Shown here: positions 43,886 through 63,237 of the stretch, one piece after another
How positions within the stretch are numbered: position 1 is the stretch's first letter
Layout of the letters: each line of letters starts with the position of its first letter
Origin: Alphaproteobacteria bacterium
GTDB lineage: Bacteria > Pseudomonadota > Alphaproteobacteria > RF32 > CAG-239
Direction of reading: 5' to 3'
Length of the DNA stretch: 64,000 nucleotides
Assembly (NCBI GenBank): GCA_045632645.1
Contig: JAZQXC010000003.1
Location: 2,033-66,032, forward strand
Translations under genes and position numbers: made by a program
Notes under the pieces: model-generated
What the model saw: only the letters and a program-made list of their open reading frames with translations
The model's database searches: none
What the model was told of the DNA's origin: nothing

Positions 43886-43886
43886 T

Positions 43887-46037: not shown

Positions 46038-46059
46038 GGAGTTTTGAAAGGAGTATATA

Positions 46060-47370: not shown

Positions 47371-48947
47371 TGACATCTTTAGAGAAGAAAGCATTTAAAG
47401 GTTTAACAACTGGGATTAAGGTTAGAAAACCTCGTTATTATTATCAGGATATTGTTGAAGTATATAATGAAGATACAATAAAAAACATTGAGCTTACAAA
47501 ATTTGAAGGACTTGAGTATAATGTGAACCAAAGAGTGATTAGGTTTAAAGAAAAAACTTTGTGGAACAATACCATATCTCCATATATTATGAGAATTTTA
47601 GCACCTTATAATGATGAAAAGTATTTAGCTTTGGCTAGATTTGTTAATTATAATATTGTTGGTTCTCCTGATATTAAAGAGGGTGTTGCAAGTGGCTTTA
47701 GTTCTTCTGATTATATTCTTGTACCAGAGCCTTTTAATCCTAAAGCTAAAACTTGGGAAATTGTTATAAAATGTACAACAAGTGATAGTTTTGTTAATGA
47801 GAGTTATCTTTATGGTAATAAAAGCACAAATAGGTCAACTCCTCAATTAGCCACATCTGCAACAGGTAATATTAAAATATATATGGCAAGTACAACAGGC
47901 AGTTGGAATATTGCAGATAATGTTCTATCTGAAAATGTGCTAGAGGTAAACACAACTTATTATATTAAAACTTCTTTTGATGGGGCTAATTATATTGTTA
48001 GCGTTAGAAAAGATGGAGAAAGTGAATGGGTTGAGTTTATTAATATTGCATCAACCTTGACAATATATGGTACTGACCAATTAGAGCTTGCTATTGGAAT
48101 GGATAGTGGTAATCAACCTTGGAATGGTAGTATCGATTTAAATGAGTGTCATATTATAGTTGGTAGTGCTATTTTATGGGGAAAGGATGCAAATAATATT
48201 TTTGAGCTAAAGGGTTGTTTGCTTGAAGATGGTAGTCGTTTATCTGCATATAACACAGCATTTTGTGGTGGCGGTGAAGTTCTATTAAGTTCATCTGACA
48301 ATGATAGGGAAGGATATGCTTGGGGTGGTAAAATTGATTTTCCTCCTGAGTTGCCTTTTTATAAAGCTTATAAGATAAACTATAATATTGTAGGTAAAAT
48401 GTTATACAGTTGTATAAATCGTTATGATTATGATAGTAGTTTGAGCGATGCATATATCACAGGATATAAAGCTAGAGGATTTGATGCCTCAAACTATATT
48501 GAGATACCAGCTATGAAAAATTATAATAGTTATGAGATGGTGTTTAGAGGTGGTATATATAATCAGACTGGTGGACATTTAGTATGGGGCGATAATACAT
48601 CATCATTTTTTATACAAACAAACTCTAAAAAGTTATCTATTTCTAAAGGCTCTACTTATGTTGGTACTAATGTTATACCTATCGATACAATATATGAGTT
48701 TAAGCTTGTATGGGATGGTACAAACTCTACTTGGTATTCAAGGGTTGCAGTTCCATATGGAGCTTTAGAAAATCCTTGGGTACTTGAGGGGACAAAAAAC
48801 ATCGATTTGTTTGATGGAGCTAATGTTCTTAGAATTGGAGGACCTTCTACTAGTACATCGTATTATTGGAAGGGTGATATAGATTTGTTAAACAGCTATA
48901 TAAAGGTTGATGATGAATATTATTGGAAGCCTTTAACTGAGGTGTAA
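47370..48947 (+). CDS. phage tail-fibre or receptor-binding-like protein (525 aa; lectin/LamG-like segments suspected)
   Basis: Composition typical of fibre proteins. Hairpin downstream. Confidence 0.45.
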   Translation: MTSLEKKAFKGLTTGIKVRKPRYYYQDIVEVYNEDTIKNIELTKFEGLEYNVNQRVIRFKEKTLWNNTISPYIMRILAPYNDEKYLALARFVNYNIVGSPDIKEGVASGFSSSDYILVPEPFNPKAKTWEIVIKCTTSDSFVNESYLYGNKSTNRSTPQLATSATGNIKIYMASTTGSWNIADNVLSENVLEVNTTYYIKTSFDGANYIVSVRKDGESEWVEFINIASTLTIYGTDQLELAIGMDSGNQPWNGSIDLNECHIIVGSAILWGKDANNIFELKGCLLEDGSRLSAYNTAFCGGGEVLLSSSDNDREGYAWGGKIDFPPELPFYKAYKINYNIVGKMLYSCINRYDYDSSLSDAYITGYKARGFDASNYIEIPAMKNYNSYEMVFRGGIYNQTGGHLVWGDNTSSFFIQTNSKKLSISKGSTYVGTNVIPIDTIYEFKLVWDGTNSTWYSRVAVPYGALENPWVLEGTKNIDLFDGANVLRIGGPSTSTSYYWKGDIDLLNSYIKVDDEYYWKPLTEV

Positions 48948-48963
48948 ATGATAGAGTGATGAT

Positions 48964-48982
48964 AAGGCGCTTTTAGCGCCTT
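48964..48982 (+). terminator. hairpin (AAGGCGC/GCGCCTT) after the fibre gene; weak T-tract
   Basis: 7-bp perfect stem. Confidence 0.35.
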
Positions 48983-48987
48983 ATTTT

Positions 48988-49380
48988 ATGGAGGTGGTTT
49001 TGAAAAAATATATTTCAAAAAAAGAACGGATGGTTAATAAGGTTTTAGAAGAATTAAGGGGTGGTAAATCTCTTTATGCTTCGTGCTTTGAGGTTGGAAT
49101 TAGAACAGGGGAATTTTATGATTTTATAGCTAAAAATGATAAAGCTAAAGAAAAGTATTTATTTGCGCTTACGGATTATGCTGATAAATGTGTTGATGAT
49201 ATTAGAGGGATTGTTGATGAGCTAAAAAAAGGAGAAATTGATAATTCAACAGCTAAATTGTTGATTGATACATTAAAATGGCTTGTGAGCAAAAGTAATC
49301 AAGATGTTAATGGAGTGGGAAGTAATGATAGCGAAGCTGGAGATGAGGACTTTAAAGAAATTGTTGTAAAATTTGTATAG
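48988..49380 (+). CDS. putative terminase small subunit
   Basis: Sits immediately upstream of the large terminase. ~130 aa with an HTH-like N-terminus. Alternative TTG start at 49000 behind GGAGG. Confidence 0.4.
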   Translation: MEVVLKKYISKKERMVNKVLEELRGGKSLYASCFEVGIRTGEFYDFIAKNDKAKEKYLFALTDYADKCVDDIRGIVDELKKGEIDNSTAKLLIDTLKWLVSKSNQDVNGVGSNDSEAGDEDFKEIVVKFV

Positions 49381-49392
49381 TGGGAGTTTTTT

Positions 49393-50691
49393 ATGAAGGT
49401 GGAATTACCAAGAGCATTTCAGGAGTTATTAACTGCAAAGGCTAGGTATAAATTGTTTTATGGTGGAAGAGCTGGTGGGAAATCTTTTGCTTTTGCTGAT
49501 GCGTTATTAATAAAAGCAACTAGTAAAAAAATGCTTATTGCTTGTGTTAGAGAAGTTCAAAACTCTATTAAAGATTCTGTTTATAAATTGATTGCAGATA
49601 GAATTAGCTTTTATGGCTTAAAAGAGTATAAGCTTTATGAGGATAGGATTGTTAATTTAAAGAATAAATCAAAATTTATTTTTAAAGGTGTGTTAGAACA
49701 ACATTCACAAAATATAAAGTCTTTGGAAGGGGTGGATATTTGTTGGTGTGAAGAAGCGCAAAAAATATCGGCAAGAGCTTGGGAAATTTTGGACCCAACA
49801 ATTAGAAAAGATGGTTCTGAAATTTGGTTATCAATGAATAGGGAAGAAGAATGTGATCCAGTTTGGAAGGCTCTTGCCTTAAAGGCTTATGATGATGTTA
49901 TACTTAGAAAAGTAAATTATTATGATAATCCTTATTGCCCTTTGGGAATGAAGAAGCTTGCTTTGAAGATGAAGGAGGAAAATTATGAAGAGTATCTTCA
50001 TGTGTGGGAAGGAGAGCCTAGATTAGAGGCAGGAAATCATTTAATTGGACGTGAAGAAGTATATAAGGCTTTTGAGGGAAATAGGGTAAATTTGATGGGG
50101 TATGCACCTTTAATTATTGGGGTTGATGTGGCAAGATTTGGCGATGATAAGACTGCTATTTGTTTTAGGCGTGGAAGAGTGGTTGAAAAATTTTTATTGT
50201 TTGAAAAATTAGATGTTGTTCAAGTTGCGCACCAAGTGTCGGGGATTATTGCAGAGTATAATCCGGTCAGAGTTTGTATTGATATTGGTGGATGCGGTGC
50301 TGGTGTTTATGATGTTTTAGTTAGTAATGGATTTTTAGATATTTTGGTGGCAATTAATTTTGGGCAGAAGGCTGAAAATCCTGAAAGATATGTTAATCGT
50401 AGAGCAGAGATGTGGGATAGAGTTAGAGAATGGCTTAAGTCTGATGTTGGTGTTTTTTTGCCTAAGGTGGATGGTGTTGTTGAAGATTTGACAGCTCCAT
50501 TAAAAATTTATGATAGCATTGGAAGACTTCAGCTTGAGGCTAAATCTGAGATTAAAAAACGCATAGGACACTCAACAGATGTGGGTGATGCGTTGGCGCT
50601 AACTTTTGCGATTAAAAATGTGGAGTATCTAACGAGTATAAGTAGGTTAAAAAGAGGAGGTGAGTATGTTGATGATGGGGTTTATTTGTAA
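49393..50691 (+). CDS. terminase large subunit (PBSX/XtmB-like family)
   Basis: KLFYGGRAGGKSFAFADALLIKA Walker A. 432 aa. C-terminal nuclease-like acidic residues. Confidence 0.8.
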   Translation: MKVELPRAFQELLTAKARYKLFYGGRAGGKSFAFADALLIKATSKKMLIACVREVQNSIKDSVYKLIADRISFYGLKEYKLYEDRIVNLKNKSKFIFKGVLEQHSQNIKSLEGVDICWCEEAQKISARAWEILDPTIRKDGSEIWLSMNREEECDPVWKALALKAYDDVILRKVNYYDNPYCPLGMKKLALKMKEENYEEYLHVWEGEPRLEAGNHLIGREEVYKAFEGNRVNLMGYAPLIIGVDVARFGDDKTAICFRRGRVVEKFLLFEKLDVVQVAHQVSGIIAEYNPVRVCIDIGGCGAGVYDVLVSNGFLDILVAINFGQKAENPERYVNRRAEMWDRVREWLKSDVGVFLPKVDGVVEDLTAPLKIYDSIGRLQLEAKSEIKKRIGHSTDVGDALALTFAIKNVEYLTSISRLKRGGEYVDDGVYL

Positions 50692-50735: not shown

Positions 50736-50756
50736 GTTTATTTTATGGAGGTATTT

Positions 50757-52379
50757 ATGTTTGAAAATTTGAATCAAAAAGATAAATTAAAGTATAAATC
50801 TAAGATTGTTGCTGATGATATTTTGGGAACATTTGAGGCAATGAAAAAAGAACGAAAAGAGTGGGAGCCTATGTGGAATAAGGCTGCTGAAATGTGTGCT
50901 ATTAATTCTAAACTTTTTAATAAAGATGAAAATGGTAGGCATAGGCAAACTATATTTGACAGTACAGCTCGTAATGCTTTAACTTGTTTTGCGGCGAGCT
51001 TAAAATCTGTTATTGTGCCAACTACATCTAAATGGCATAGATTAAAAGCAGTGGATCCTAAACTTGATGAAAATGATGAGGTGAAGAAATATTTAGAATA
51101 TGCAACAGATTTGTTATTTAGAGTGAGATATTCATCTAAAGCAAATTTTGCTAGCGAAAGTGATTTGATGTTCAATCAACTTGGTATTTATGGACATGCT
51201 CTTTGGATGGTTGATGATGAAGTTGGTAAAGGAATTGTGTATAGAGCTATTCCTGTTAATGAGGCTTATATTAAGAGGAATGATAGAGGCGGCATTGAGT
51301 GTGTTATTAGAGAGTATGAGCTTAGCGCTAAAGAGGCATATGCTAGATTTGGTGATAAGGTTTCAGGTGAGATAAAGAGGGCATTAAGTGGAGCGCCTAA
51401 TCGTTTATTTAAGTTTATTCATGCTGTGTTTGAAAAAGAGGACTATGATGTTAAGAAAAAAGATAGTAAAGGAATGAGATTTGCAAGTGTTCATTTGGAG
51501 GTTGGTAATAGAAAAATTGTGCAAGAAGGGGGATATAGATGTTGTCCGTATATGGCGCCTAGATTTTTGGGGATTCCTGGTAGTTCTTATGGAGATAGCC
51601 CAGCTTTGCAAGCTTTTTATGATATGCTTACAGCTAATGAAATGGGAAAAACTATTCTTAGAACAGGGCAATTACAGGCAAATCCTCCGATTTTGACTAA
51701 TATGGGGTTGATTGATACTAATAAGTTAGGGTCTGCTGGGGCTGTGATTAGAGGTGGTCTTGATAATCAGGGGAGACCAGCTGCTGTTTCTATGCAATAT
51801 GGGAATAATCTTTCTATTACTATTGAAATGCAACGAGAAATTAGAGCTTCTATTGAGAGAGCATTTTTGGTGCCTTTGTTTCAATCTTTGACACAATCAA
51901 AGCAGATGACTGCAACTGAAGTTGAAAAAAGAGAAATGGAAAAATCTATGCTTTTGGCTCCTATGTGTGAAAGAATTGCTTCTGAATGGTTGACTGGAAA
52001 TATTGAAAGAGAGCTTGATATTTTAATGTCTTATGGAATGCTTGATGGTGTGCCAGATGAGTTGATGAAAGAGGGGGCTATTGCTATAGAGTTTGAAAGT
52101 CCGGCTGTTCGTATGCAAGATGCTAGTTCTATTATGGGGCTTTATAAAACAGTTGAAGCTGCAGTGACTTTGAGCCAGTCAAATCCTTCTGTTCTTGATA
52201 TATTTGATATGGAGAGTGCTCTTCGTAAAATTGCTGATTATCATGGAGTTGATAGTAGCATTGTTAGAACTAAAGAGGATATCGAAATGTTAAAGCTTAG
52301 GGCTTCAATGAAAAATGCTGAAGCAATGATGGGCGTTGTTGCCAATCCATTAATGTCTGCAATGAATAGCATTAAATGA
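50757..52379 (+). CDS. putative portal protein
   Basis: Position after the large terminase. 541 aa. Start placed at the ATG behind GGAGG. Confidence 0.5.
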   Translation: MFENLNQKDKLKYKSKIVADDILGTFEAMKKERKEWEPMWNKAAEMCAINSKLFNKDENGRHRQTIFDSTARNALTCFAASLKSVIVPTTSKWHRLKAVDPKLDENDEVKKYLEYATDLLFRVRYSSKANFASESDLMFNQLGIYGHALWMVDDEVGKGIVYRAIPVNEAYIKRNDRGGIECVIREYELSAKEAYARFGDKVSGEIKRALSGAPNRLFKFIHAVFEKEDYDVKKKDSKGMRFASVHLEVGNRKIVQEGGYRCCPYMAPRFLGIPGSSYGDSPALQAFYDMLTANEMGKTILRTGQLQANPPILTNMGLIDTNKLGSAGAVIRGGLDNQGRPAAVSMQYGNNLSITIEMQREIRASIERAFLVPLFQSLTQSKQMTATEVEKREMEKSMLLAPMCERIASEWLTGNIERELDILMSYGMLDGVPDELMKEGAIAIEFESPAVRMQDASSIMGLYKTVEAAVTLSQSNPSVLDIFDMESALRKIADYHGVDSSIVRTKEDIEMLKLRASMKNAEAMMGVVANPLMSAMNSIK

Positions 52380-52399
52380 TGTTTTTTTATAAAAAGAAA

Positions 52400-52422
52400 A
52401 ACCGTCGATTGTCTCGACGGTT
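52400..52422 (-). terminator. terminator of the minus-strand kinase gene (9-bp perfect stem AACCGTCGA/TCGACGGTT, T-run on the minus strand)
   Basis: Read directly. Confidence 0.6.
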
Positions 52423-52433
52423 CTTAGATTAGA

Positions 52434-53972
52434 TTACATTACATTGTAATTTGGGGTGTATATATTCTGATTAGCATGGTCGTGGCTAGGCTTATTGAAC
52501 AAGTCTGCTAGACCATTGATTGGAATATATGCGTAATTTGGGCGAGATGTTACTTCGTATTTTACCTCATAGAGGTTTTTGCGTAATATCTCTAGACTTA
52601 ACCATGGGTCTGATAATTTATGGTCACCTAAAAACTCTCTTGATACTTCGTTTATAAGAGGTTTTATAGCTTCTAGTCCCCATTTTTTACGTTCTTCTTT
52701 TATTTCTTGGTTTGGAGCGTTTGAGGTATAGTCTTCAACAGCGACAGCGCCTAAGTATCCTTTTATAGAACGATACATGCCTGCGATATCTCGAACGCTT
52801 ATGTATTTTTGTTTGCGCTCTCTCATTGGAAGAGCAGGTTCGCCAGCAAAATCAATGAAGCGTAAGTCATTGTCTGGGGTAACCATAACTTGACCTAAGT
52901 GGAAGTCACCATGTACACGATGGGTTAGGGTTGTTGATTTACCTTCTCTTATGGCCTTTAATTTTGGGGAAATAAACTCATGAGTGTATTCTTCCCAGTG
53001 CATGATTAAATCTTGAGCTTTTTCTTTTGTGTCAGTTGGAAGATCAGCTAATTTTTCGATAATGTCTCTTTTTGTTTGATATAAGAGTACTTGAAGATTT
53101 TTTTCATAAATGTTGATGAAGTTTTCATCAGGTAGTTGAGGAGTAAACTCTTCTTTTTCATCTGGTCTTGATAAACATTCATTCATTTCTTTTGTTCGTT
53201 TGCTCAATGTTCTTATTAAATCCATAAATTCAGGATTGTCATTGGCTGTAATATCTCTTTGGATTAGATAATTTATACGAAGTTTTTCTTGGAGAATTGA
53301 TTTTAAGTAATTCCACATATCGCCTTTGTTTGGTACAAACTCTTGAATAACACCACCTGATGCTTCAACACCTTCTGGTGTTCTCCAAATTAGACCACCA
53401 TATGTTTGAGGCATGAATGTTGCTTCTTCACGCATGAGCTTTTCGTTCATCTCAAACTCTGAATTAATATCTGGTGAAAATTCTAACATGCGCTCTAGTT
53501 TGAAAGCAAGTTTGCCATCGCCAATTTTGAGCGTGGTGTTACTTTGTTCTACACCAAGTGCTTTTGATGTTTCATCTTTGTGTTCTTGTAACATATCTTT
53601 GGAATTATAAATTGTTGTGCTTTCTAGTGACCAACCATTTGGAAAAGTGATTTTGCCATTATTTTCTCTCATTAATTGGGTGAAAGATTGCCAAAAATCA
53701 GGCTCTATAGTGGCATCTGTGTAGTAATAGCCATCGTCTAGAAAAAGAAAATTCCCCTTTTGGGGTGGAGTCTCTTTTATAGCAAGTGGCATGGAAAAAA
53801 AGCGTTTTGTATTGTCATCTAAGGTAACTTCGCCGATTACGAATAATTTGTTATTATTATCAAAGGGAAGTTGTTCTAGAGCAAGGGAGGTTACTTGATT
53901 GTTTTCAATCTTGGTTTTAAAATCACACCAACGGCATTCGTGGATGTAATTAAGAATTTTTGTGGTATTCAT
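52434..53972 (-). CDS. maltokinase-like protein (Mak/Pep2 family, APH-fold kinase)
   Basis: VHGDFHLGQVMV and IDFAGEP match the Mak catalytic and Mg-binding motifs. Start at ATG 53972 behind AAGGAA. Confidence 0.65.
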   Translation of the reverse strand: MNTTKILNYIHECRWCDFKTKIENNQVTSLALEQLPFDNNNKLFVIGEVTLDDNTKRFFSMPLAIKETPPQKGNFLFLDDGYYYTDATIEPDFWQSFTQLMRENNGKITFPNGWSLESTTIYNSKDMLQEHKDETSKALGVEQSNTTLKIGDGKLAFKLERMLEFSPDINSEFEMNEKLMREEATFMPQTYGGLIWRTPEGVEASGGVIQEFVPNKGDMWNYLKSILQEKLRINYLIQRDITANDNPEFMDLIRTLSKRTKEMNECLSRPDEKEEFTPQLPDENFINIYEKNLQVLLYQTKRDIIEKLADLPTDTKEKAQDLIMHWEEYTHEFISPKLKAIREGKSTTLTHRVHGDFHLGQVMVTPDNDLRFIDFAGEPALPMRERKQKYISVRDIAGMYRSIKGYLGAVAVEDYTSNAPNQEIKEERKKWGLEAIKPLINEVSREFLGDHKLSDPWLSLEILRKNLYEVKYEVTSRPNYAYIPINGLADLFNKPSHDHANQNIYTPNYNVM

Positions 53973-54081
53973 ATCAAAAGATTCCTTTATTATTGTTTTT
54001 ATGATTGATGTATATAATACTAAAAAATACTTGTCAAAGATTCTTTTTATTTTTATTTTGAAAAAAAAAGGAGTATTTGGC

Positions 54082-56217
54082 ATGAATAAATTAACTAATT
54101 TAGCAGAGATGGTTGGAATTTCATCTTCTTATATTGATAAAACAGGTAAAAAGCATGATACACCTGATGATGTACGCAGATTTTTTTTAGAGGCTATGGG
54201 GATAAAAGCGAAGAATGATAATGAAATAGAAGCTGAAATAAAAAGAGTTTTAGAGCCTTTGTTAATTGAAGAAGTGCTTGCGTTTTATGAAGATGAAGAA
54301 ATTTTAATCAAAATTAAGGCAAATGGAGTCTTTAAGGTTATTTTGAGTAATGAAGATGGAGAGCTTGTTGAAGAATTAAAGGTTAATGGCAATGAGGATT
54401 TTTCTTTTAGGGTATCTGAGTTCGGTTATTATAATCTAAAAGTTGAAGAAGAAGGTGGTGATAAAAAGGCTGAAAGTTTTATAATTTATGCACCAAAGTA
54501 TTGTTATTTGCCTCAATTTATAAAAAATAAAGAACATATTTTTGGTGTGTCTTTGATGATGTATGCACTGAAGTCTGAAAATAGTATTGGTATTGGGGAT
54601 TTTGGTGATTTGGAGGAAATTGTTAAGTTAACTGCTAAAAATGGTGGTGATGTTGTTGGGCTTAGTCCTTTGGGAGCGATGAGTCCTTATACTCTTCCTA
54701 AATCTATACTTAATATGTTTAAGGGTGATGTTTCTCCGTATAGAACGCTAAGTAGGTTATTTATAAACTATGCATATATTAGTTTGAAAGATGTTGAGGA
54801 TTATAAAAACTCTGCTGATGTTTTGAGTTTTATGAATGATGAAGGAGTTAAAAATGAAATTAGGCGCTTAAATGAAAGCGATAAAGTGCTTTATACTCCT
54901 GTATTAATGTTAAAGCTTAAAATTCTTACAATGATGTATAAGGAATTTATTAAAAACGGAAGTATTGAGAGAAAAAATGAGTTTTTAAGATATAAAGATG
55001 AAAAAGGGGAAGAATTATATAATCTTTGTTTGTTTGAAGCATTATTAGAGCGAAATAGAGGAGTTCCTTTTTGGCGTTTTTGGATGGATGGGACTGATGA
55101 TATAAATTCTTTGGTTACAAGAAAATTTGCTGATGAGAATAAAGAACGTATTGATGTTTTTGCTTATTGTCATTGGCTTGCTGATTTGCAACTTAAAAAA
55201 TTGCAGAATTTAGCGATTGAACTTGGAATGAAAGTTGGACTTTATACGGATATGCCGATTGGAGCTGCGTCTAATGGAGCTGAAGTTTGGGAAAATACTG
55301 AAGCATATGTTTTAGATGCTGGAATTGGTGCGCCGGCTGACCCAATGAGACCAAGGGGACAAAGCTGGGGATTTACTCCTTATCATCCTCATGTTTTAAG
55401 AAAGCAAAAGTATGCGCCTTTTATTAAACTTGCTCGTGAAAATATGATAAATTCTGGTGCGTTGAGAATTGACCATGCTATGGGATTGTTAAGATTGTTT
55501 TGGGGATTTTTTGAAGAAGGAAATCCTGTTGTGCAGGGTGCGTATGTGTATTATGATATGAAGGTTTTAACTGCGATTTTGGCTGTTGAAAGTAATAGAG
55601 CTAAATGTTTAATTATTGGAGAAGATTTGGGTACGGTGCCGGAAGGATTTAGAGAATATATGGCAGAACATGGACTTTTATCTTATAAAGTATTCTTTAG
55701 GCAAAAAGAAAAAGATGGTAGTTTTATTAAACCTTGTAACTATGATTATATGTCTTTGGCACAATCTTCTACTCATGACCAAGCAACAAGTGTTGGTTTT
55801 TGGTGCAATGAAGATATTGAAGTGTTTAAAAAGTGTGGTTTGTATGTTAATGATGAACAATATGTATCTAATTTGCAAGGACGCCAAAAAGATAGAGTTA
55901 ATATGATTAAAGCCTTTGATGAACTTGGTATTGTTGATGAAAAATTAAAAGGTGAAATGATTGATAGTGCTGAAAAAGGTGATGATGTGCCTGATGGGAT
56001 TGAGCGTGTGGTTAATGTGTTTGGAGCTAAAACTAATAGCGCATTGTATTTGGTTAGGTTGTGTGATATATTTGCGCAAAAGGTTTTGGATAATGCTCCA
56101 GGAACTATTGATGAATATACTAACTGGCGTGTTAAACTTGGTTGTGATATTGAGATGATTAAAAAATCAGATTGTTTTGAGAATGTTATGAATGATATTA
56201 AAAAATATCGTTCTTAA
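54082..56217 (+). CDS. malQ: 4-alpha-glucanotransferase (amylomaltase, GH77)
   Basis: GIGDFGDL, LRIDHAMGL and GEDLGTVP signature motifs. Start at ATG 54082 behind AAGGAG. Confidence 0.85.
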   Translation: MNKLTNLAEMVGISSSYIDKTGKKHDTPDDVRRFFLEAMGIKAKNDNEIEAEIKRVLEPLLIEEVLAFYEDEEILIKIKANGVFKVILSNEDGELVEELKVNGNEDFSFRVSEFGYYNLKVEEEGGDKKAESFIIYAPKYCYLPQFIKNKEHIFGVSLMMYALKSENSIGIGDFGDLEEIVKLTAKNGGDVVGLSPLGAMSPYTLPKSILNMFKGDVSPYRTLSRLFINYAYISLKDVEDYKNSADVLSFMNDEGVKNEIRRLNESDKVLYTPVLMLKLKILTMMYKEFIKNGSIERKNEFLRYKDEKGEELYNLCLFEALLERNRGVPFWRFWMDGTDDINSLVTRKFADENKERIDVFAYCHWLADLQLKKLQNLAIELGMKVGLYTDMPIGAASNGAEVWENTEAYVLDAGIGAPADPMRPRGQSWGFTPYHPHVLRKQKYAPFIKLARENMINSGALRIDHAMGLLRLFWGFFEEGNPVVQGAYVYYDMKVLTAILAVESNRAKCLIIGEDLGTVPEGFREYMAEHGLLSYKVFFRQKEKDGSFIKPCNYDYMSLAQSSTHDQATSVGFWCNEDIEVFKKCGLYVNDEQYVSNLQGRQKDRVNMIKAFDELGIVDEKLKGEMIDSAEKGDDVPDGIERVVNVFGAKTNSALYLVRLCDIFAQKVLDNAPGTIDEYTNWRVKLGCDIEMIKKSDCFENVMNDIKKYRS

Positions 56218-56248
56218 TAAGTCTTATAAATAATGTTGTAAAATTGAA

Positions 56249-56273
56249 GGAGTGCTTTGGCGCTCCTTTTTTT
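56249..56273 (+). terminator. conserved hairpin motif, copy 1 (GGAGTGC-TTTG-GCGCTCC plus T7)
   Basis: One of three related hairpins (see findings). Confidence 0.55.
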
Positions 56274-56301: not shown

Positions 56302-56640
56302 ATGTTTTTAAAAAAGGCAAAAAGAGAACTACAATTAGTTAAAGCTTTTCAGGAGTTATTTTTAGATGATAAAAAGGAGCTTAAAGATGCGGGAAAGATT
56401 GTTATTTCTTTTTTGAGAGATGAGGTTGGGGGACGTGGTGAATTGGGGAAGAATGGAGTTCCTTATTTTTATGATAGTAATAATAGTTTTGATGTGGGAG
56501 CTGCGGGATTTTTGCTTGGTAAAAGAAGAGTGTTTGATTTGATTATTAAATATTTATCACTTGATGAAAGAGAAATATTTAAGCTTATTAGCGTTAGTAA
56601 AAAACGTGATGAGAATTTTGATGATGAAATTAATGTTTAG
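56302..56640 (+). CDS. hypothetical protein (112 aa) in the phage region
   Basis: GGAG RBS. No domain recognised. Confidence 0.45.
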   Translation: MFLKKAKRELQLVKAFQELFLDDKKELKDAGKIVISFLRDEVGGRGELGKNGVPYFYDSNNSFDVGAAGFLLGKRRVFDLIIKYLSLDEREIFKLISVSKKRDENFDDEINV

Positions 56641-56681: not shown

Positions 56682-56731
56682 GTATTGACAAGTGTGACAT
56701 AGTTGGTTTATAGTTATGTCAGAATGGTAGA
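56682..56731 (+). promoter_or_regulatory. phage-type promoter/operator unit, copy 2 (TTGACA-N18-TATAGT with perfect 7-bp palindrome TGACATA...TATGTCA)
   Basis: Near-identical to 42663-42712. Confidence 0.55.
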
Positions 56732-56735
56732 AGAG

Positions 56736-56758
56736 GCATCGATTTGATGTCTTTTTTT
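56736..56758 (+). terminator. leader terminator 2a (CATC/GATG plus T7)
   Basis: Short stem and T-run. Confidence 0.35.
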
Positions 56759-56765
56759 GTTTTTA

Positions 56766-56789
56766 GGCGCTGAAATAGCGCTTTTTTTT
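56766..56789 (+). terminator. leader terminator 2b (GGCGCT/AGCGCT plus T8)
   Basis: 6-bp GC-rich stem plus TTTTTTTT. Confidence 0.6.
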
Positions 56790-56803
56790 ATATTTAATTT
56801 TGA

Positions 56804-56828
56804 GGATTGCTTTGGCAGTCCTTTTTTT
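56804..56828 (+). terminator. conserved hairpin motif, copy 2 (GGATTGC-TTTG-GCAGTCC plus T7)
   Basis: Covaries with copy 1. Lies inside the TTG-initiated ORF extension, which is therefore rejected. Confidence 0.55.
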
Positions 56829-56859
56829 ATTTGTGTTTAACATTTTTTGTGAGGAAAAT

Positions 56860-57585
56860 ATGAGAAAATTTAATAAGCCGGAGGGGCAGACTACCTCCGA
56901 TAACTTTCTTAAGTCTGAAATTGAAAAAGACTTTTTGCGCGCACAATCTGGTTGGGGTGAGGTGAGCGATGATGATCTTTCGTATATCAGTAATAAGGGT
57001 TTTAAATCTCCTTCTGATTTACTTAAATCTTATCGTGAGTTAGAGCGAGTTTATTCGTCTAAAGTCAGCATTCCTCGGGACGGCGATAAAGAGGGCTTTA
57101 GTAAACTTTATTCTAGGCTTGGTATGCCTAAAGATTTGGACGGATTTAATATTGAATTTCAAGATGAAGATAAAGAACTTGGAAGTCAATTTACGAAAGT
57201 ATGTCTTGAAAATAATATTCTGCCTCAGTCTGCAAAAGCTCTTTATGAATGGTTTGTTAAATCTAGAGAAGATGCAGAAAATGTGATGAATCAAGATTGG
57301 GAAAATCAATCTTTTTTACAGATGAAGGAAGTGGAAGAAAGTTGGGGCGCTAAGGCTAAACAAAACATCGAATTAATGAAAAGAGGTATTAGACTTGTTT
57401 CTGATGATGAAGATGTAATTGAAAATATGGAAAGAGCCTTGGGTACTAAGCAAATGATGGAAACATTTTGTAAGCTTGGAGAAGCCGTTTCTGAAGATAA
57501 TCCGGTTAGTTTTGGAAAAAGAGGGAGGACTGATGATGATTGGTCTGCGGTGGAATATTTTAGAGAAATGTTTAATGATTATTAA
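56860..57585 (+). CDS. putative scaffolding protein (acidic, helical)
   Basis: Position between portal and coat. 241 aa, acidic, helix-rich. Start at the ATG behind GAGG. Confidence 0.4.
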   Translation: MRKFNKPEGQTTSDNFLKSEIEKDFLRAQSGWGEVSDDDLSYISNKGFKSPSDLLKSYRELERVYSSKVSIPRDGDKEGFSKLYSRLGMPKDLDGFNIEFQDEDKELGSQFTKVCLENNILPQSAKALYEWFVKSREDAENVMNQDWENQSFLQMKEVEESWGAKAKQNIELMKRGIRLVSDDEDVIENMERALGTKQMMETFCKLGEAVSEDNPVSFGKRGRTDDDWSAVEYFREMFNDY

Positions 57586-57609
57586 TTTTTAATTTGAAAG
57601 GAAAAAATA

Positions 57610-58509
57610 ATGGCTAGTACATTAAAAGAAATTGCGGTATCGCTCTCTAAGAAACAGGAGCATTATGTTGATAGTTTAACTGAAGAATCTCCAATTTTAG
57701 ATAATATGCGTTTTGAACCTTCTACCCATGGTTTATGGAATGCATATGAAGAAGTTGCTAGAATTGAAGGTGCTGGTTTTGTTGATATTAATCAACCATT
57801 GCCTGAAATGGAAGTTGATTCTAATTTGAAAAAAATTGATTTATCTATTTTGGGTGGTGAAATTTTCTTGCCGGAGGATAAAGGCTCTGTTATTGGTGTT
57901 AGTGAATATTTTGGTAAGAAAGTGCCTGTGCTTTTGAAACATGCAGGTCAAACAGCTGAAAAGAAAATAATTTATGATAACTTTATCCCTTATGCTGTAA
58001 ATAATGGTAAGGCGCAAAATTCTGGTGCTGAAGAAAATTGTTATTCTATGGTGGCTGTTAGATTTATTGATGGAGAAGTAACAGGTTTATATTCTCAAAG
58101 CAATATTAATCGTTTTGGACTTTTAGATTCTAGACCTATTAATGGTGGTGCACTTTATAAAAATCATGATGGTGTGCTTGGATATGGTTTGAGACTTAAA
58201 GGCTATATTGGTATGCAACTTGCTAACAAAGATGCTGTTTCTGCTATTGTTAATATTAACCAAAACAATATTCCAACAGCTGACCAAATCGATAATATGC
58301 TTGTTGATGCAAAAGCAACTCCTGGTTCTACATTTATTTTCTGTCATCCTAAAGTGTTGTCTATGCTTAATCAATATAAAGGTAATATTTTACAAGCATC
58401 TTCATATGATTTTGATGTTAATAGAAGCTTTATGGCATGGAATGGCATTCGCTTTATTACATCTTATAACTTTAAAAATGGTACGGAAGAAGCTGTTAAA
58501 TTAGCGTAA
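57610..58509 (+). CDS. putative major capsid protein
   Basis: 299 aa immediately after the scaffold-like gene. P22-like gene order. Confidence 0.45.
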   Translation: MASTLKEIAVSLSKKQEHYVDSLTEESPILDNMRFEPSTHGLWNAYEEVARIEGAGFVDINQPLPEMEVDSNLKKIDLSILGGEIFLPEDKGSVIGVSEYFGKKVPVLLKHAGQTAEKKIIYDNFIPYAVNNGKAQNSGAEENCYSMVAVRFIDGEVTGLYSQSNINRFGLLDSRPINGGALYKNHDGVLGYGLRLKGYIGMQLANKDAVSAIVNINQNNIPTADQIDNMLVDAKATPGSTFIFCHPKVLSMLNQYKGNILQASSYDFDVNRSFMAWNGIRFITSYNFKNGTEEAVKLA

Positions 58510-58531
58510 TTTATTGATAGGAGTGAAAGTA

Positions 58532-58906
58532 ATGTTGAAAAATATATTAAAAGTATATGGCGAAGATTTAGTTAATGGTGATTTGGCTTTATCTTCTATT
58601 GAAGGAGGAAAACCTGTTTGCGCAGGTGGAACATGTGGTGCATTATGTGTTAATGTTTTTGCTAAAGGTGATGTGGTGTTGGCAGAAGATGTTAACGTTA
58701 GTGTTAAACATGGTGATACTATTGATGGTGGTTTTGCTGAATTGTTTGCTATCAACCTTGAAGGAGGGGCTCAATATAAAGATGGTGACTTAATGGCGAC
58801 TACTACTATTTCTGAAACAGCAAAGGCTTATTTGGTTGCTGATGTTGTTAGTAATGAAGCTAATAGTGGTGGTGTTCGAGTTACTCTTGGATATTTAGCT
58901 AGATAG
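58532..58906 (+). CDS. phage-region hypothetical protein (Gly-rich, 124 aa)
   Basis: Start at the ATG behind AGGAG. The track ORF uses an upstream TTG. Confidence 0.4.
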   Translation: MLKNILKVYGEDLVNGDLALSSIEGGKPVCAGGTCGALCVNVFAKGDVVLAEDVNVSVKHGDTIDGGFAELFAINLEGGAQYKDGDLMATTTISETAKAYLVADVVSNEANSGGVRVTLGYLAR

Positions 58907-58931
58907 TTTTTATTATTATTTTTAAGTTAAA

Positions 58932-58976
58932 GAGCAAAGAAAGAATGAGAAGAAAGTTCTTTCTTTGTTCTTTTTT
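58932..58976 (+). terminator. strong terminator (14-bp stem GAGCAAAGAAAGAA/TTCTTTCTTTGTTC plus T6)
   Basis: Read directly. Confidence 0.65.
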
Positions 58977-59003
58977 GTTGAAATTTAAAATAAGAAGTGT
59001 AAT

Positions 59004-59210
59004 ATGAATAAAAGAGTGTTGAGTACTGTTGAAAGTATATACAGCAAATCAAATGCTAAAAATCCAATAAAAACAGGAAATCATTTAGTTGATTATGTTA
59101 TAGGAAAAAATAAATATGCTAAAGCATGGAATGTTGGATTTGAAGTTGGAAAAGCAGTATTTGTAGCTCTGCAATCGTTTAATGAATTAAAACGTAATAA
59201 AAAATATTAG
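59004..59210 (+). CDS. small hypothetical protein (68 aa)
   Basis: ORF only. Confidence 0.3.
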   Translation: MNKRVLSTVESIYSKSNAKNPIKTGNHLVDYVIGKNKYAKAWNVGFEVGKAVFVALQSFNELKRNKKY

Positions 59211-59233
59211 TACAATATTGAAAGGAGCTAATA

Positions 59234-59653
59234 ATGAAGGGGTGGAAAAATTATTTTATAATTTGGGGAGGATTGGTTGTTAGCTCTTTTTTGTTTGGTC
59301 TTTGTTGTAGTCATCAAGATATGATATTTATCAATGCGATACTATTGGGGATGGCTATTGGATTGAGTGTTATTAATGCATTAGGTAATTATGATGTTTA
59401 TATAGATGATTTTAAGGAAAAATATAAAAATACGGCATTGTTTTTGGAAAGAATAGGGAAGGTTGATAGTTTGGTTAGTATTTTTGTGTTGCCGGTTATT
59501 GTTATTGCGTTTATGGAAAGTATGGGATGGAGCGATGTTAAGGTAAATAATGAATATCTTATATGTGTTGCTGTTTTGATGTGTAGTTTATGGTGTTTGT
59601 GTTTGGTTTTAGGAATATGGCAATTTTATATAAATAATAAATTAAAGAAATAA
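59234..59653 (+). CDS. small membrane protein (3-4 TM) in the phage region
   Basis: GGAG RBS. Hydrophobic segments. Confidence 0.4.
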   Translation: MKGWKNYFIIWGGLVVSSFLFGLCCSHQDMIFINAILLGMAIGLSVINALGNYDVYIDDFKEKYKNTALFLERIGKVDSLVSIFVLPVIVIAFMESMGWSDVKVNNEYLICVAVLMCSLWCLCLVLGIWQFYINNKLKK

Positions 59654-59778
59654 TTACAATATCGGAGATGAAAATGAAGAAAATTAAAGCTATGTTGAAA
59701 ATTATAGGTAAAGGAATATTAAAGATTTTGGACTTTATTTTATGTTGGGTATAAATGTTTTGTGATTTTGGTTTTAAA

Positions 59779-59804
59779 GGGGAGCTTTGGGCTTCCTTTT
59801 TTTT
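59779..59804 (+). terminator. conserved hairpin motif, copy 3 (GGGAGC-TTTGG-GCTTCC plus T8)
   Basis: Related to 56249 and 56804. Lies inside the TTG-extended ORF, rejected as coding. Confidence 0.5.
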
Positions 59805-59825
59805 ATTTTTAATTTGGAGGTATGT

Positions 59826-60416
59826 ATGTCAAAAATTGAAATTGTTAATAGAGCATTGATGAAGCTGGGAGAACCACCAATTTCGTCTTTGAATGATGCA
59901 CAGTTTGGAAAAAGTTATGAAATTATATATGATGATATAAAGGAACTTTTGCTTTCTTCTTATCCTTGGAGATTTTCTTTAGAGATAAAGTATTTGCCAA
60001 AGATGGAAGAGAAATATGGCGATAAATTTATGTATAAATTGCCAACAGATTGTCTTTTGCTTGTTGGGGTTTTGGGGAGTTCTAAAAGCGATGTTACTGA
60101 CGTTCGGGTATCTAAGGTTGAAGGATATGAAGTGGTTAATAATGCGATAGTTACTTTGGCTCAAAAAGGAGTGATTGCGGAGTATGTGAAAAATGTTGAT
60201 GATGATATGATGTTTCCACCACTTTTTAGGGAGGCAATGGCTGCGAAAATTGCGGCTGAATTATCAATGAGAATTAAGCATTCTACTTCTATTAAACAAA
60301 TGTTGGAAAATGAATTTATTACTCTTATTAGGCAGGCTGAACTTAATAATGAAATTATTAAAGATACAGAGCTTATGCCTGATAGTAGTTGGGTTTTGGT
60401 GCGTGATAATTGGTAA
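59826..60416 (+). CDS. head-to-tail adaptor protein (P22 gp4 / T7 gp11 tail tubular A-like)
   Basis: N-terminus IEIVNRALMKLGEPPISSLNDAQ resembles the conserved N-terminal motif of P22 gp4 and T7 gp11 ([20 protein letters not shown] / VNDILASIGEPPVSTLEGD), recalled from memory. Confidence 0.55.
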   Translation: MSKIEIVNRALMKLGEPPISSLNDAQFGKSYEIIYDDIKELLLSSYPWRFSLEIKYLPKMEEKYGDKFMYKLPTDCLLLVGVLGSSKSDVTDVRVSKVEGYEVVNNAIVTLAQKGVIAEYVKNVDDDMMFPPLFREAMAAKIAAELSMRIKHSTSIKQMLENEFITLIRQAELNNEIIKDTELMPDSSWVLVRDNW

Positions 60417-60435
60417 ATTTTGAAAGGAGAATATT

Positions 60436-60621
60436 ATGAGTTCGGTTTTTAAATCACCTAAAGTTAGAACTATTGAAACTAAGGTTGTTGAACCAGAAAT
60501 TGTTGATATGTCTGAAACGGTTTTTGAACTTGAAAAAAAACGTAAGAAAAAAATGGGGGCAGTGTCTCAACTTTTATCAAAAGATAATAGTTATGGTGGA
60601 AAGACAACTCTTGGAGGATAA
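60436..60621 (+). CDS. small hypothetical protein (61 aa)
   Basis: GGAG RBS. Confidence 0.3.
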   Translation: MSSVFKSPKVRTIETKVVEPEIVDMSETVFELEKKRKKKMGAVSQLLSKDNSYGGKTTLGG

Positions 60622-60648
60622 TTTTTTTAGAGTTTGTTTGTTGTTATT

Positions 60649-60675
60649 AGAGGAGTTTTAGCTCCTCTTTTTTTA
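60649..60675 (+). terminator. terminator (AGAGGAG/CTCCTCT plus T8)
   Basis: 7-bp perfect stem. Confidence 0.55.
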
Positions 60676-60679
60676 TGTT

Positions 60680-61105: not shown

Positions 61106-61109
61106 TGAG

Positions 61110-61556: not shown

Positions 61557-61566
61557 GGAGTGTGTT

Positions 61567-63186: not shown

Positions 63187-63237
63187 AATTTTTAAATATT
63201 TTGATGTGTTGATATATTTGTTTTGGGAGAATGTGAT

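What the first reader, a model, noticed from the sequence alone, without database searches (positions are those of the whole stretch)
52400..56273. Carbohydrate-metabolism moron (divergent maltokinase-like kinase and malQ) between portal and scaffold genes
A Mak/Pep2-like kinase (HGDFHLGQV, DFAGEP) and a GH77 4-alpha-glucanotransferase are transcribed divergently from a shared 109-bp promoter region. Each has its own terminator (52400-52422 and 56249-56273). The pair lies exactly between the portal gene and the scaffold/coat genes of an otherwise P22-ordered module. Either a host alpha-glucan/maltose-1-phosphate pathway is carried as prophage cargo, or a prophage module was split by insertion. 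The duplicated late-promoter copy just downstream favours cargo insertion.
Basis: partly seen in the sequence, partly recalled or inferred. Interest (0 to 1): 0.6.

Follow-up and report, generated by a model that had tools for sequence, protein, structure and literature searches.

The report
Host sugar genes inside domesticated phage cluster
Two sugar-metabolism genes that belong to the bacterium itself sit in the middle of a virus-derived gene cluster, and that cluster looks like a long-domesticated, chromosome-bound particle-making module rather than a travelling virus, so the genes are probably not viral cargo.

Summary
A 512-aa maltokinase-like kinase (52434-53972, minus) and a 711-aa GH77 MalQ (54082-56217, plus) diverge from a 109-bp spacer. 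Each ends in a strong terminator. They lie between a T7-type portal gene and the rest of a podovirus-like head module.

The "moron" reading is only partly right. About 40 relatives have portal followed directly by the small gene g56302 and then the scaffold-position gene, so this is an insertion. However, the mak<>malQ unit is this gut alphaproteobacterial lineage's own locus. With the same conserved spacer it occurs in three purely housekeeping contexts elsewhere.

The phage-like cluster is not an ordinary prophage:
- Housekeeping genes flank it (rlpA-dacC-tmk on the left; rpoD on the right in a relative).
- No integrase, replication or repressor gene was detected.
- It keeps the same left flank in a genome diverged to dS about 1.
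- Its dN/dS is 0.07-0.4, like the flanking host genes.

The cluster's 17-nt promoter box normally occurs once. A second copy, in front of the scaffold-position gene, occurs only in the loci that carry mak/malQ.

Best reading: an old insertion of a host locus into a domesticated, possibly gene-transfer-agent-like cluster, compensated by a promoter duplication. GTA function, kinase substrate and GlgE presence are untested.

The parts
52434..53972 (-). Maltokinase-like kinase (mak), 512 aa
   Evidence: TIGR02457 E 9.8e-56, below cutoff. PDB maltokinase sequence hits. AF2 model pLDDT 90.2, best fold matches 4U94/4O7O/5JY7. Motifs read from the sequence against PMC4306142 and PMC6520443: VEQSNTTL, K158, HGDFHLGQ, DFAGEP, K465-x2-YE-x2-Y472.
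53973..54081 (.). 109-bp divergent spacer with overlapping promoter-like hexamers. For malQ: TTATTG-17-TATAAT. For mak on the minus strand: TTGACA at 54037-54032.
   Evidence: Spacer conserved at 72% column identity across 7 loci, embedded and host-context alike, with invariant TGTATATAA and TTGTyAAA. Hexamer reading is from the sequence. Function is inferred.
54082..56217 (+). GH77 4-alpha-glucanotransferase, long E. coli-type MalQ, 711 aa
   Evidence: PF02446 E 1.3e-93. TIGR00217 392.7 bits, above cutoff. PRK11052 E 4.7e-162.
52397..52425 (-). Intrinsic terminator of mak. The hairpin also lies just after the portal stop codon.
   Evidence: 12-bp stem plus T run. -16.5 kcal/mol, z -4.35.
56246..56269 (+). 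Intrinsic terminator of malQ
   Evidence: 10-bp stem plus T run. -16.6 kcal/mol, z -4.27.
50745..52379 (+). Portal (T7-type head-tail connector). Last gene of the proximal operon.
   Evidence: PF12236 E 4.6e-98. phrog_332 E 1e-109.
56302..56640 (+). g56302, a conserved 112-aa cluster gene. It follows portal directly in relatives. Here it is stranded between the malQ terminator and the second promoter box.
   Evidence: Adjacent to portal in about 40 relatives. dN/dS 0.08-0.24.
56683..56859 (+). Second copy of the cluster promoter/operator box (TTGACA-18-TATAGT, inverted repeat TGACATA..TATGTCA) plus a leader with three hairpin and U-run elements
   Evidence: Leader fold z -4.0. A second copy is present only in mak/malQ-bearing loci.
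42667..42838 (+). First (ancestral-position) copy of the promoter/operator box plus a leader with two terminator-like hairpins. It is divergent from the GtrII-like gene.
   Evidence: The same box lies at the GtrII/cluster junction in 22 relatives.
40946..42607 (-). GtrII-like membrane glycosyltransferase. It always sits divergently next to the cluster.
   Evidence: PF14264 E 4.4e-13. Adjacent to the cluster in all relatives that cover this junction.
42839..50691 (+). tailN (head-fibre-like), nozzle, two variable fibre-like genes (g46060, g47370), terS and terL. The tail block was moved ahead of terS in this clade.
   Evidence: PF25641, phrog_376 E 1e-139, phrog_1482, PF04466. Order compared with relatives.
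56860..64000 (+). Distal operon: scaffold-position gene, coat-position gene, g58514, two small genes, tubular protein A, g60436, g60680, g61110, g61567 and the start of an LPD23 giant protein (from 63240, runs off the window).
   Evidence: phrog_3742, phrog_394. Weak hits to the 'capsid assembly protein' of Pelagibacter podophages. LPD23 homology. Coat identity unconfirmed.

Best explanation
The segment 52397-56269 is a self-contained copy of this bacterial lineage's own mak<>malQ unit.

What the unit is: two genes of alpha-glucan/maltodextrin metabolism. They are transcribed divergently from overlapping promoters in a conserved 109-bp spacer, and each is closed by its own terminator.

Where it sits: it was inserted long ago between the portal gene and the small gene g56302 of a podovirus-derived head-tail-lysis cluster. 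That cluster is fixed in the chromosome between housekeeping genes, has no detected integration, replication or lysogeny genes, co-diverges with the flanking host genes, and is kept intact by purifying selection. It is a domesticated element and a candidate gene-transfer-agent-like module.

Consequence of the insertion: the terminator-bounded insert cut the single late operon in two. The distal half (scaffold-position gene onwards) is served by a duplicated copy of the cluster's promoter/operator box and terminator-rich leader, so both halves probably answer to the same regulator. The pair itself works for the host, insulated from the cluster, and does not travel as viral cargo.

Shown: gene families; the insertion relative to the canonical order; host flanks; co-divergence; the distribution of the box.

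Inferred: that the duplication restores transcription; that the leader is controlled by antitermination; that the kinase makes maltose-1-phosphate; that particles are produced.
For: 1. Insertion. IMG/VR and metagenome relatives have portal, g56302 and the scaffold-position gene in a row without mak/malQ. None of the 5 viral and 43 metagenome portal loci carries the pair. The same is true of L140.
2. Host origin of the pair. The same divergent unit lies among DnaJ/CorA/rpsD (L002), AlaRS/RadC/ACP (L135) and Hfq/HflX/LysRS (L137). MAGs that carry both a nozzle homologue and mak have them at distant locus tags. The spacer is conserved in all contexts. No close relative of this kinase was found in a scan of 2.9 M IMG/VR contigs for exact peptide words taken from it, and 50,697 phage records give only one 26%-identity match.
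3. The cluster is not a normal prophage. In the window the left flank is PepF, AmiC, LolA, holB, rlpA, dacC and tmk. L139 plus L132, two stretches of one contig, run from rlpA-dacC-tmk to rpoD with only structural genes, a lysozyme and unknowns, and no integrase or replication hit in Pfam or PHROGs.
4. Co-divergence and selection, window against L139/L132. dS is 0.77-1.2 for dacC, tmk and g39943 and 2.3 for the GtrII-like gene, 0.7-1.5 for cluster genes and 1.0-1.9 for mak and malQ. dN/dS is 0.11-0.36 for cluster genes against 0.19 for dacC and tmk.
5. Age of the insertion. It is shared by the window, L001, L003 and L139/L132, with mak 58-81% and malQ 72-92% identical.
6. Promoter box. TATTGACWWSTNTGWCA occurs once, at the GtrII/cluster junction, in 22 relatives. 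A second copy upstream of the scaffold-position gene occurs only in the window, L003 and L132, the three mak/malQ loci that cover that site. It is absent from about 30 other loci that cover it.
Against: - The right end of the element was seen only in a relative (L132), not in this genome, because the window stops inside the LPD23 gene.
- Several cluster genes have no known function, so one could hide a divergent recombinase or regulator.
- IMG/VR lists some relatives as viral contigs, and more distant relatives (L007, L120) look like real phages. Some family members may therefore still be active.
- Flanks differ among more distant lineages: MetRS/FTHFS, LPS genes, LolA.
- L135, a host-context copy, groups with L139, an embedded copy, at 98-99% NJ bootstrap. 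At least one extra relocation must therefore be assumed.
- No transcription or particle data exist.
- The whole genome could not be searched for a second mak/malQ copy or for GlgE.
Confidence: 0.62

Rival explanations
1. True moron or auxiliary metabolic cargo. An active temperate podovirus picked up the host mak/malQ pair and carries it between hosts, expressing it from the prophage to alter host glycogen or maltose metabolism.
For: The pair has its own promoters and terminators and is inserted at a module junction, as morons are. The structural genes are complete and under purifying selection. A GtrII-type gene, typical of lysogenic conversion, sits next to the cluster. Some relatives are catalogued as viral contigs.
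Against: No integrase, replication or immunity genes lie between the housekeeping flanks. The left flank is the same in a genome at dS about 1. dS of the pair, the cluster and the host flank genes is similar. Embedded copies are paraphyletic with a host-context copy. A scan of IMG/VR for exact peptide words of this kinase found no close relative, and the phage collection gave only one 26%-identity match. GC content of the pair is no different from its surroundings.
Confidence: 0.13
2. Decaying defective prophage. The cluster is a dead remnant, and the insertion and rearrangements are neutral scars with no remaining function for the phage genes.
For: Lysogeny and replication genes were not detected. 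There are repeated rearrangements and insertions at several junctions in different lineages. In L140 the g61567 and LPD23 genes are missing from the cluster.
Against: All structural ORFs are intact in the window and in dozens of relatives spanning 32-55% GC. dN/dS is 0.07-0.4 at dS about 1. The promoter box is conserved across all lineages and was duplicated exactly where the operon was cut. The nozzle search listed 120 of its 168 homologues, and most of those are full length.
Confidence: 0.15
3. Two unrelated phage remnants happen to flank a host locus.
For: The pair is a host locus found elsewhere in non-phage contexts.
Against: The two flanks together make one non-redundant gene set that is contiguous in relatives. 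Both halves carry the same promoter/operator box. Both halves show the same ranking of relatives by identity.
Confidence: 0.02

Closest known systems
Mycobacterial maltokinase Mak/Pep2 (GlgE pathway; PDB 4U94, 4O7O, 5JY7)
   Same: The full-length fold includes the N-terminal cap. The P-loop xEQSNT, the phosphate-binding Lys, HGDxHxGQ and the Mg-binding Asp of DFx are present. So is the sugar-helix K-x2-YE-x2-Y, which corresponds to MvMak K413/Y416/Y420, residues whose mutation abolishes activity (PMC4306142). The GlcN-kinase signature Q-x2-RE-x2-YA (PMC6520443) is absent.
   Different: Only 16-20% identical. About 60 residues longer. Below the TIGR02457 cutoff, with no Pfam hit. DFE is DFA. 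The position of a sugar-contacting Trp is Tyr here and Met in most family members. It is not fused to or next to TreS or GlgE; it is paired divergently with MalQ instead. Activity is untested.
E. coli-type amylomaltase MalQ (GH77)
   Same: Long form with the N-terminal extension. It passes the TIGR00217 cutoff and aligns end to end with PRK11052.
   Different: About 30% identity to enterobacterial MalQ. It sits inside a phage-derived cluster and is partnered with a Mak-like kinase rather than MalP.
Phage morons / auxiliary metabolic genes
   Same: An autonomous transcription unit with its own promoter and terminator, inserted between two genes that are adjacent in relatives.
   Different: The carrier is not a demonstrable replicating phage. 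The insert is old, co-diverges with the chromosome and is compositionally indistinguishable from its surroundings. It is 3.9 kb, partly on the opposite strand, and splits the head-assembly operon.
Gene transfer agents (RcGTA-type in Alphaproteobacteria) and the podovirus-like FpGTA of Faecalibacterium (PMC12946183)
   Same: A phage-derived structural and lysis gene set with no replication or integration genes detected, chromosomally fixed, under purifying selection and shared across a host lineage.
   Different: The proteins are unrelated to the HK97/siphovirus-like RcGTA module: here there is a T7-type portal, a nozzle and tubular protein A. Whether they relate to FpGTA proteins was not tested. 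Host genes are nested inside the cluster and the promoter is duplicated. No evidence of random DNA packaging exists. The cluster is about 30 kb rather than 10-15 kb.
Burkholderia phage BcepC6B, Ralstonia phage RpY1 and Pelagibacter podophages (nearest isolated phages)
   Same: Same order: terL, portal, small gene, scaffold, a roughly 300-aa capsid gene, a roughly 130-150-aa gene, tubular A, tubular B. Portal 31-37% identical.
   Different: Those are complete 36-44 kb phage genomes. The coat-position protein here shows no detectable similarity to their capsid proteins.
Lambda PR'-tR' late promoter controlled by Q antitermination (analogy for the leader only)
   Same: A near-consensus promoter followed by terminators, ahead of the structural genes.
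   Different: No Q-like gene was identified and no Rfam family matched. This is a functional analogy, not a membership claim.

Membership tests
Maltokinase (Mak/Pep2, TIGR02457, EC 2.7.1.175) | Scores above the curated family HMM threshold | tested here: not met
   TIGR02457 E 9.8e-56, 189.5 bits against a cutoff of 375, aligned 35-528 to model positions 23-528 of 529. No Pfam family at E<=0.01.
Maltokinase (Mak/Pep2, TIGR02457, EC 2.7.1.175) | Mak fold: N-terminal cap, intermediate subdomain and C-lobe | tested here: met
   AF2 model pLDDT 90.2. Foldseek top hits 4U94, 4O7O and 5JY7, E 2e-21 to 2e-18 over about 507 columns, ahead of GlcN kinase 6HWJ/K/L.
Maltokinase (Mak/Pep2, TIGR02457, EC 2.7.1.175) | Catalytic motifs: P-loop AEQSNTSV, AMLKV Lys, HGD, DFE (PMC4306142) | tested here: met
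   VEQSNTTL, AFK158L, H354-G-D356-F-H-L-G-Q361 and D374-F-A. All are invariant in an 18-sequence family alignment, except that the Glu of DFE is Ala.
Maltokinase (Mak/Pep2, TIGR02457, EC 2.7.1.175) | Sugar-binding helix of Mak type (K413/Y416/Y420 in MvMak), not the GlcN-kinase signature Q-x2-RE-x2-YA-x3-LP-x-W | tested here: met
   K465-N-L-Y468-E469-V-K-Y472 aligned to MsMak LDKAVYEAAYE. The GlcNK signature is absent. The Trp equivalent to MtMak W441 is not conserved.
Maltokinase (Mak/Pep2, TIGR02457, EC 2.7.1.175) | Phosphorylates maltose to alpha-maltose-1-phosphate, with GlgE present to consume it | not testable with these tools
   No enzyme assay is possible. No GH13-type ORF was found among the large ORFs of the 64-kb window or in the called genes around the pair in relatives. 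The whole genome was not available.
GH77 4-alpha-glucanotransferase (MalQ) | Passes the curated family thresholds | tested here: met
   PF02446 314.9 bits (cutoff 25). TIGR00217 392.7 bits (cutoff 205.65).
Phage moron / prophage cargo | Carried inside a phage genome that has integration, replication and regulation functions | tested here: not met
   Housekeeping genes lie to the left. The composite L139+L132 runs from tmk to rpoD without any integrase or replication hit. The right end was not seen in this genome itself.
Phage moron / prophage cargo | Autonomous promoter and terminator; absent at the same junction in related elements | tested here: met
   for the signals. for absence in relatives.
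Gene transfer agent-like domesticated element | Phage structural cluster without replication or integration genes, at an orthologous chromosomal site, co-diverging with the host | tested here: met
   The same rlpA-dacC-tmk-g39943 left flank occurs in the window and in L139 (dacC 81%, tmk 73%). g39943 and LolA also lie next to the cluster in the 53% GC human-gut relatives. Similar dS for flank and cluster genes. More distant lineages have other flanks.
Gene transfer agent-like domesticated element | Purifying selection on structural genes | tested here: met
   dN/dS 0.07-0.41 in three pairwise comparisons.
Gene transfer agent-like domesticated element | Particles package random host DNA and do not preferentially package the cluster | not testable with these tools
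   Needs sequencing of virus-like-particle DNA, or culture.
T7/BcepC6B-type podovirus structural module | Portal, tubular proteins A and B (nozzle), scaffold and major capsid protein homologous to that group | tested here: inconclusive
   Portal is clear (PF12236; 31-37% identity to BcepC6B, RpY1 and others). Nozzle is phrog_376 at E 1e-139, but PF25675 scores 25.6 against a cutoff of 27. Tubular A is phrog_394 at E 3.5e-39. Scaffold matches are weak. The capsid protein has no detectable similarity.

The most novel reading that the evidence does not exclude
The cluster from 40.9 kb to beyond 64 kb is a previously undescribed family of podovirus-derived (T7-type portal and nozzle), chromosomally inherited particle-producing elements. 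It would be a gene-transfer-agent-like system widespread in uncultured gut Alphaproteobacteria of humans and ruminants. Because it no longer has to be packaged as a unit, it tolerates host loci such as mak/malQ nested between its head genes. It stays co-regulated through copies of one promoter/operator box followed by terminator-rich leaders.
Probability: 0.35. Interest if true: 0.75.

Novelty: new variant of a known kind. Interest (0 to 1): 0.55.

Why it matters
If the reading is right, this is not a virus reprogramming host sugar metabolism. It is the reverse: a host metabolic locus living inside a domesticated virus-derived cluster.

This bears on three points:
- It flags a widespread, conserved podovirus-like cluster in gut Alphaproteobacteria as a candidate gene-transfer-agent family. 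GTA-like elements in gut commensals have only just begun to be described (PMC12946183), and the known alphaproteobacterial GTAs are of a different, siphovirus-like type.
- It gives a clean natural example of how an operon cut by an insertion may be repaired by duplicating its promoter/operator.
- It is a caution for 'auxiliary metabolic gene' calls. Metabolic genes flanked by phage structural genes need not be viral cargo.

The Mak-like kinase paired with MalQ, with no GlgE or TreS found in the stretches examined, also hints at an unstudied variant of maltose/alpha-glucan metabolism in this lineage.

Tried and rejected
- Megablast of 49-60 kb against 50,697 phage records found no match.
It was useful only for Mak-MalQ co-occurrence.
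- Look-ups of the window's own proteins (mak, g61567) in the contig index were 'not on record'. The contig beyond 64 kb therefore could not be read, and the right end had to be taken from the relative L132.
- Rfam on 42-64 kb gave only two chance-level hits, so no known RNA family explains the leaders.
- Coat identity was tested five ways without result: Pfam and PHROGs, a PDB profile search, tblastn against phages, hhalign against the capsid proteins of Baldr, RpY1 and MW202898, and a single-sequence AlphaFold model that was unusable at pLDDT 32.
- The repeat search of 48-62 kb listed no repeat pairing the two junctions, and I saw no IS remnant on reading the junction sequences. The insertion mechanism is unknown.
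- 'Two unrelated phage remnants' was rejected because the halves are complementary and share the same promoter box.
- The similar hairpins at 56241, 56796 and 59771 (family D2) were considered as a mobile repeat. They were judged to be similar intrinsic terminators.
- Literature searches for RF32 plus GTA, and for maltokinase plus malQ plus prophage, found nothing.

Full report
WHAT IS THERE

The window has about 32% GC. On the minus strand, the ORF 52434-54083 contains the real kinase gene 52434-53972. Homologues are 504-516 aa and align from that ATG. On the plus strand, malQ runs 54082-56217 behind an AAAGGAG ribosome-binding site. The spacer between them is 109 bp.

MalQ is an unambiguous long-form GH77 amylomaltase: PF02446 E 1.3e-93, and TIGR00217 392.7 bits against a cutoff of 205.65.

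The kinase evidence is as follows.
- It has no Pfam hit.
- It aligns end to end with TIGR02457 'putative maltokinase' (E 9.8e-56), but below that model's cutoff.
- It hits the PDB maltokinases by sequence.
- An AlphaFold model built on 18 homologues (pLDDT 90.2) matches maltokinases 4U94, 4O7O and 5JY7 best (E 2e-21 to 2e-18, about 507 aligned columns). These rank ahead of the paralogous glucosamine kinase.

I read the sequence against the published motifs in PMC4306142 and PMC6520443.
- The P-loop (VEQSNTTL), the phosphate-binding Lys158, HGDFHLGQ and the Mg-binding Asp374 are present.
- The sugar-helix K465-x2-Y468-E469-x2-Y472 is present. It corresponds to MvMak K413/Y416/Y420.
- The GlcN-kinase signature is absent.
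- Deviations: DFE is DFA, and one sugar-contacting Trp is not conserved.

Each gene ends in a strong hairpin followed by a T run, at 52397-52425 (minus) and 56246-56269 (plus).

THE SURROUNDINGS

Upstream lie the following:
- a GtrII-like membrane glycosyltransferase, 40946-42607, minus strand
- a head-fibre-like gene and a nozzle/tubular-B protein
- two variable fibre-like genes
- terS (Sf6 type), terL, and a T7-type portal ending at 52379

Downstream lie the following:
- g56302 (112 aa)
- a scaffold-position gene with weak similarity to the capsid assembly proteins of Pelagibacter podophages
- a 299-aa coat-position gene and g58514
- tubular protein A
- small genes, g61567, and the start of an LPD23 giant protein that runs off the window

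Left of the GtrII-like gene everything is housekeeping: tmk, a DacC-type peptidase, rlpA, holB, LolA, AmiC and PepF.

IT IS AN INSERTION

In IMG/VR contigs and in 43 metagenome loci found with the portal, the canonical order is: terS, terL, g60436, portal, g56302, scaffold-position gene, coat-position gene, g58514, tubA, tailN, nozzle, g60680, g61110, g61567. None of these loci has mak or malQ next to the portal.

The window's arrangement is shared by L001, L003 and the L139+L132 contig. It consists of:
- the tail block moved ahead of terS
- g60436 moved behind tubA
- mak/malQ between portal and g56302

THE PAIR IS THE HOST'S OWN

The same divergent mak<>malQ unit lies in three different purely housekeeping contexts in related bacteria:
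- L002: DnaJ, CorA, rpsD
- L135: AlaRS, RadC, ACP
- L137/138: Hfq, HflX, LysRS

Two MAGs named by their sources as Alphaproteobacteria carry both a nozzle homologue and a mak homologue at distant locus tags. The genome of L002 has a compact canonical cluster elsewhere, L140.

The 109-bp spacer is 72% conserved across embedded and host-context copies, with invariant cores. The unit therefore moves with its own control region.

Mak and MalQ also co-occur within 10 kb in 31 of 80 distant Mak loci, and are directly adjacent in an Azospirillum. The functional pairing is thus general.

No close relative of this kinase turned up in a scan of 2.9 M IMG/VR contigs for exact peptide words taken from it. 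The 50,697 phage records give only one 26%-identity match.

THE CLUSTER IS NOT AN ORDINARY PROPHAGE

L139 and L132 are overlapping stretches of one 101-kb contig. Together they show the whole element. In order:
- rlpA, dacC, tmk, g39943, two unknown genes, a Mur ligase, GtrII-like gene
- promoter box, tail block, terS, terL, portal, one unknown gene
- mak, malQ, g56302, three small genes
- promoter box, scaffold-position gene through g61567, LPD23, one unknown gene, lysozyme, one unknown gene
- rpoD

No integrase, repressor or replication protein was found by Pfam or PHROGs. The L118+L140 composite gives the same picture in another lineage.

The left flank of L139 is the window's own left flank: dacC 81%, tmk 73%, g39943 61% identical. 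g39943 and LolA also adjoin the cluster in 53% GC human-gut relatives on contigs of up to 536 kb.

Pairwise dS between the window and L139/L132 is similar for most host flank genes (0.77-1.2; 2.3 for the GtrII-like gene), cluster genes (0.7-1.5) and mak/malQ (1.0-1.9). dN/dS of cluster genes (0.11-0.36) matches that of dacC and tmk (0.19). Cluster GC follows the host, from 32% to 55%.

This is the signature of a chromosomally fixed, vertically inherited element that is still under selection. It is GTA-like in architecture, but there is no evidence on what it packages.

PROMOTER DUPLICATION

A 38-nt box, TTGACA-18-TATAGT with an inverted repeat TGACATA..TATGTCA around the -10, occurs at 42669 and 56685. 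Each copy is followed by a leader with two or three hairpin and U-run elements.

The 17-nt core TATTGACWWSTNTGWCA occurs exactly once, at the GtrII/cluster junction, in 22 relatives. A second copy upstream of the scaffold-position gene exists only in the window, L003 and L132. These are the three mak/malQ-bearing loci that cover that site. About 30 other loci that cover it lack the second copy.

My inference is that the terminator-bounded insert severed the single late operon and the duplicated box restores co-regulated transcription of the distal half. The terminator-rich leaders suggest control by antitermination. No antiterminator gene and no Rfam family was found.

g56302 is left between the malQ terminator and the new box. 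How it is transcribed is unexplained.

HISTORY

NJ trees of Mak, MalQ and their concatenation give ((window, L003), L001) as sister to (L139, L135), with L002 and L137 outside. Bootstrap support is 98-100% for Mak and the concatenation; MalQ alone supports (L139, L135) at only 60%.

L135 is a host-context copy. The simplest history is therefore one insertion in the ancestor of the five, followed by a later relocation in the L135 lineage. Two insertions at the same junction is the less likely alternative. Either way, the embedded copies do not form a separate 'phage' lineage.

WHAT THE PAIR DOES (INFERRED)

MalQ disproportionates maltodextrins and interconverts them with maltose and glucose. 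The kinase most likely phosphorylates maltose to maltose-1-phosphate, as Mak does. That needs GlgE, which I could not look for genome-wide. None was seen among the large ORFs of the window or around the pair in relatives. A different acceptor, such as glucose released by MalQ, cannot be excluded.

COMPARISON AND VERDICT

The nearest isolated phages share gene order and 31-37% portal identity. They are BcepC6B, RpY1, Stenotrophomonas BUCT708 and Pelagibacter podophages. The coat-position protein has no detectable relative among them.

Known GTAs of Alphaproteobacteria are siphovirus-like. A podovirus-like GTA-like element was recently reported only in Faecalibacterium (PMC12946183).

An insertion did split the module and the promoter was duplicated. 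But this is a host locus nested in a domesticated cluster, not prophage cargo. Interest is moderate for the finding as posed, and higher for the cluster it exposes.

Noticed in passing
window 57610-58509: The coat-position gene is the best-conserved gene of the cluster: 77-96% identity across hosts of 32-55% GC, and 52-53% to the viral-contig relatives. Yet it has no hit in Pfam, PHROGs, the PDB or 50,697 phage records. It also shows no hhalign relation to the roughly 300-aa capsid proteins at the same position in the nearest phages.
   Followed up: partly
window 46060-48947 (g46060, g47370): Two fibre-like genes after the nozzle are far more diverged than their neighbours: 21-34% identity overall against 60-80% for neighbours. 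Only short N- or C-terminal stretches are conserved. This is the pattern of exchangeable receptor-binding proteins.
   Followed up: partly
window 40946-42607 and all related loci: A GtrII-like membrane glycosyltransferase always sits divergently next to the cluster and shares the promoter-box intergenic region with it. It may be a surface-polysaccharide (receptor) modifier retained together with the cluster.
   Followed up: partly
window 56302-56640: g56302 is stranded between the malQ terminator and the second promoter box, yet stays under purifying selection (dN/dS 0.08-0.24). In L132, three more small genes share this position. Its promoter is unknown.
   Followed up: no
L095-L126, L141 (human-gut relatives, 53-55% GC): Other insertions of small genes, mostly without database matches, occupy three junctions: g60436/portal (about 2.4 kb), g56302/scaffold-position gene (1.6-3.3 kb, variable) and tubA/tailN (about 1.5 kb). 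L114 carries small lipoprotein-like genes at similar junctions. Module junctions of this cluster appear to be insertion hot spots.
   Followed up: partly
L118 5560-6054 versus L132 17037-17507: The cluster's lysozyme lies at the far right end, before rpoD, in L132. In L118 it lies left of the GtrII gene. In L140 the g61567 and LPD23 genes are missing from the cluster. Gene order and completeness vary strongly among lineages.
   Followed up: partly
L127 4607-5212, L111 4487-5134: A small ORF whose N-terminal sequence looked to me like a serine recombinase (resolvase/invertase type; no family search was run) lies next to the GtrII-like gene in some rumen relatives. It is the only recombinase-like gene seen near any version of the cluster.
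   Followed up: no
window 56241-56276, 56796-56831, 59771-59806: Three terminator hairpins share a GCTTTGG-type loop and 69-81% identity. They are probably a common terminator style of this cluster rather than a mobile repeat.
   Followed up: partly
window 5911-5986: tRNA-Thr (CGT) on the minus strand, far from the cluster. No att-like repeat linking it to the element was looked for.
   Followed up: no
L007 3557-4012, L120 440-2059: More distant compact relatives (portal 56-58%) carry an ORF with a GIY-YIG-like N-terminal sequence and a large methyltransferase-like gene. Both labels come from reading the sequences, with no family search. These contigs look like genuine phage genomes, so free-living phage relatives of the cluster exist.
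   Followed up: no
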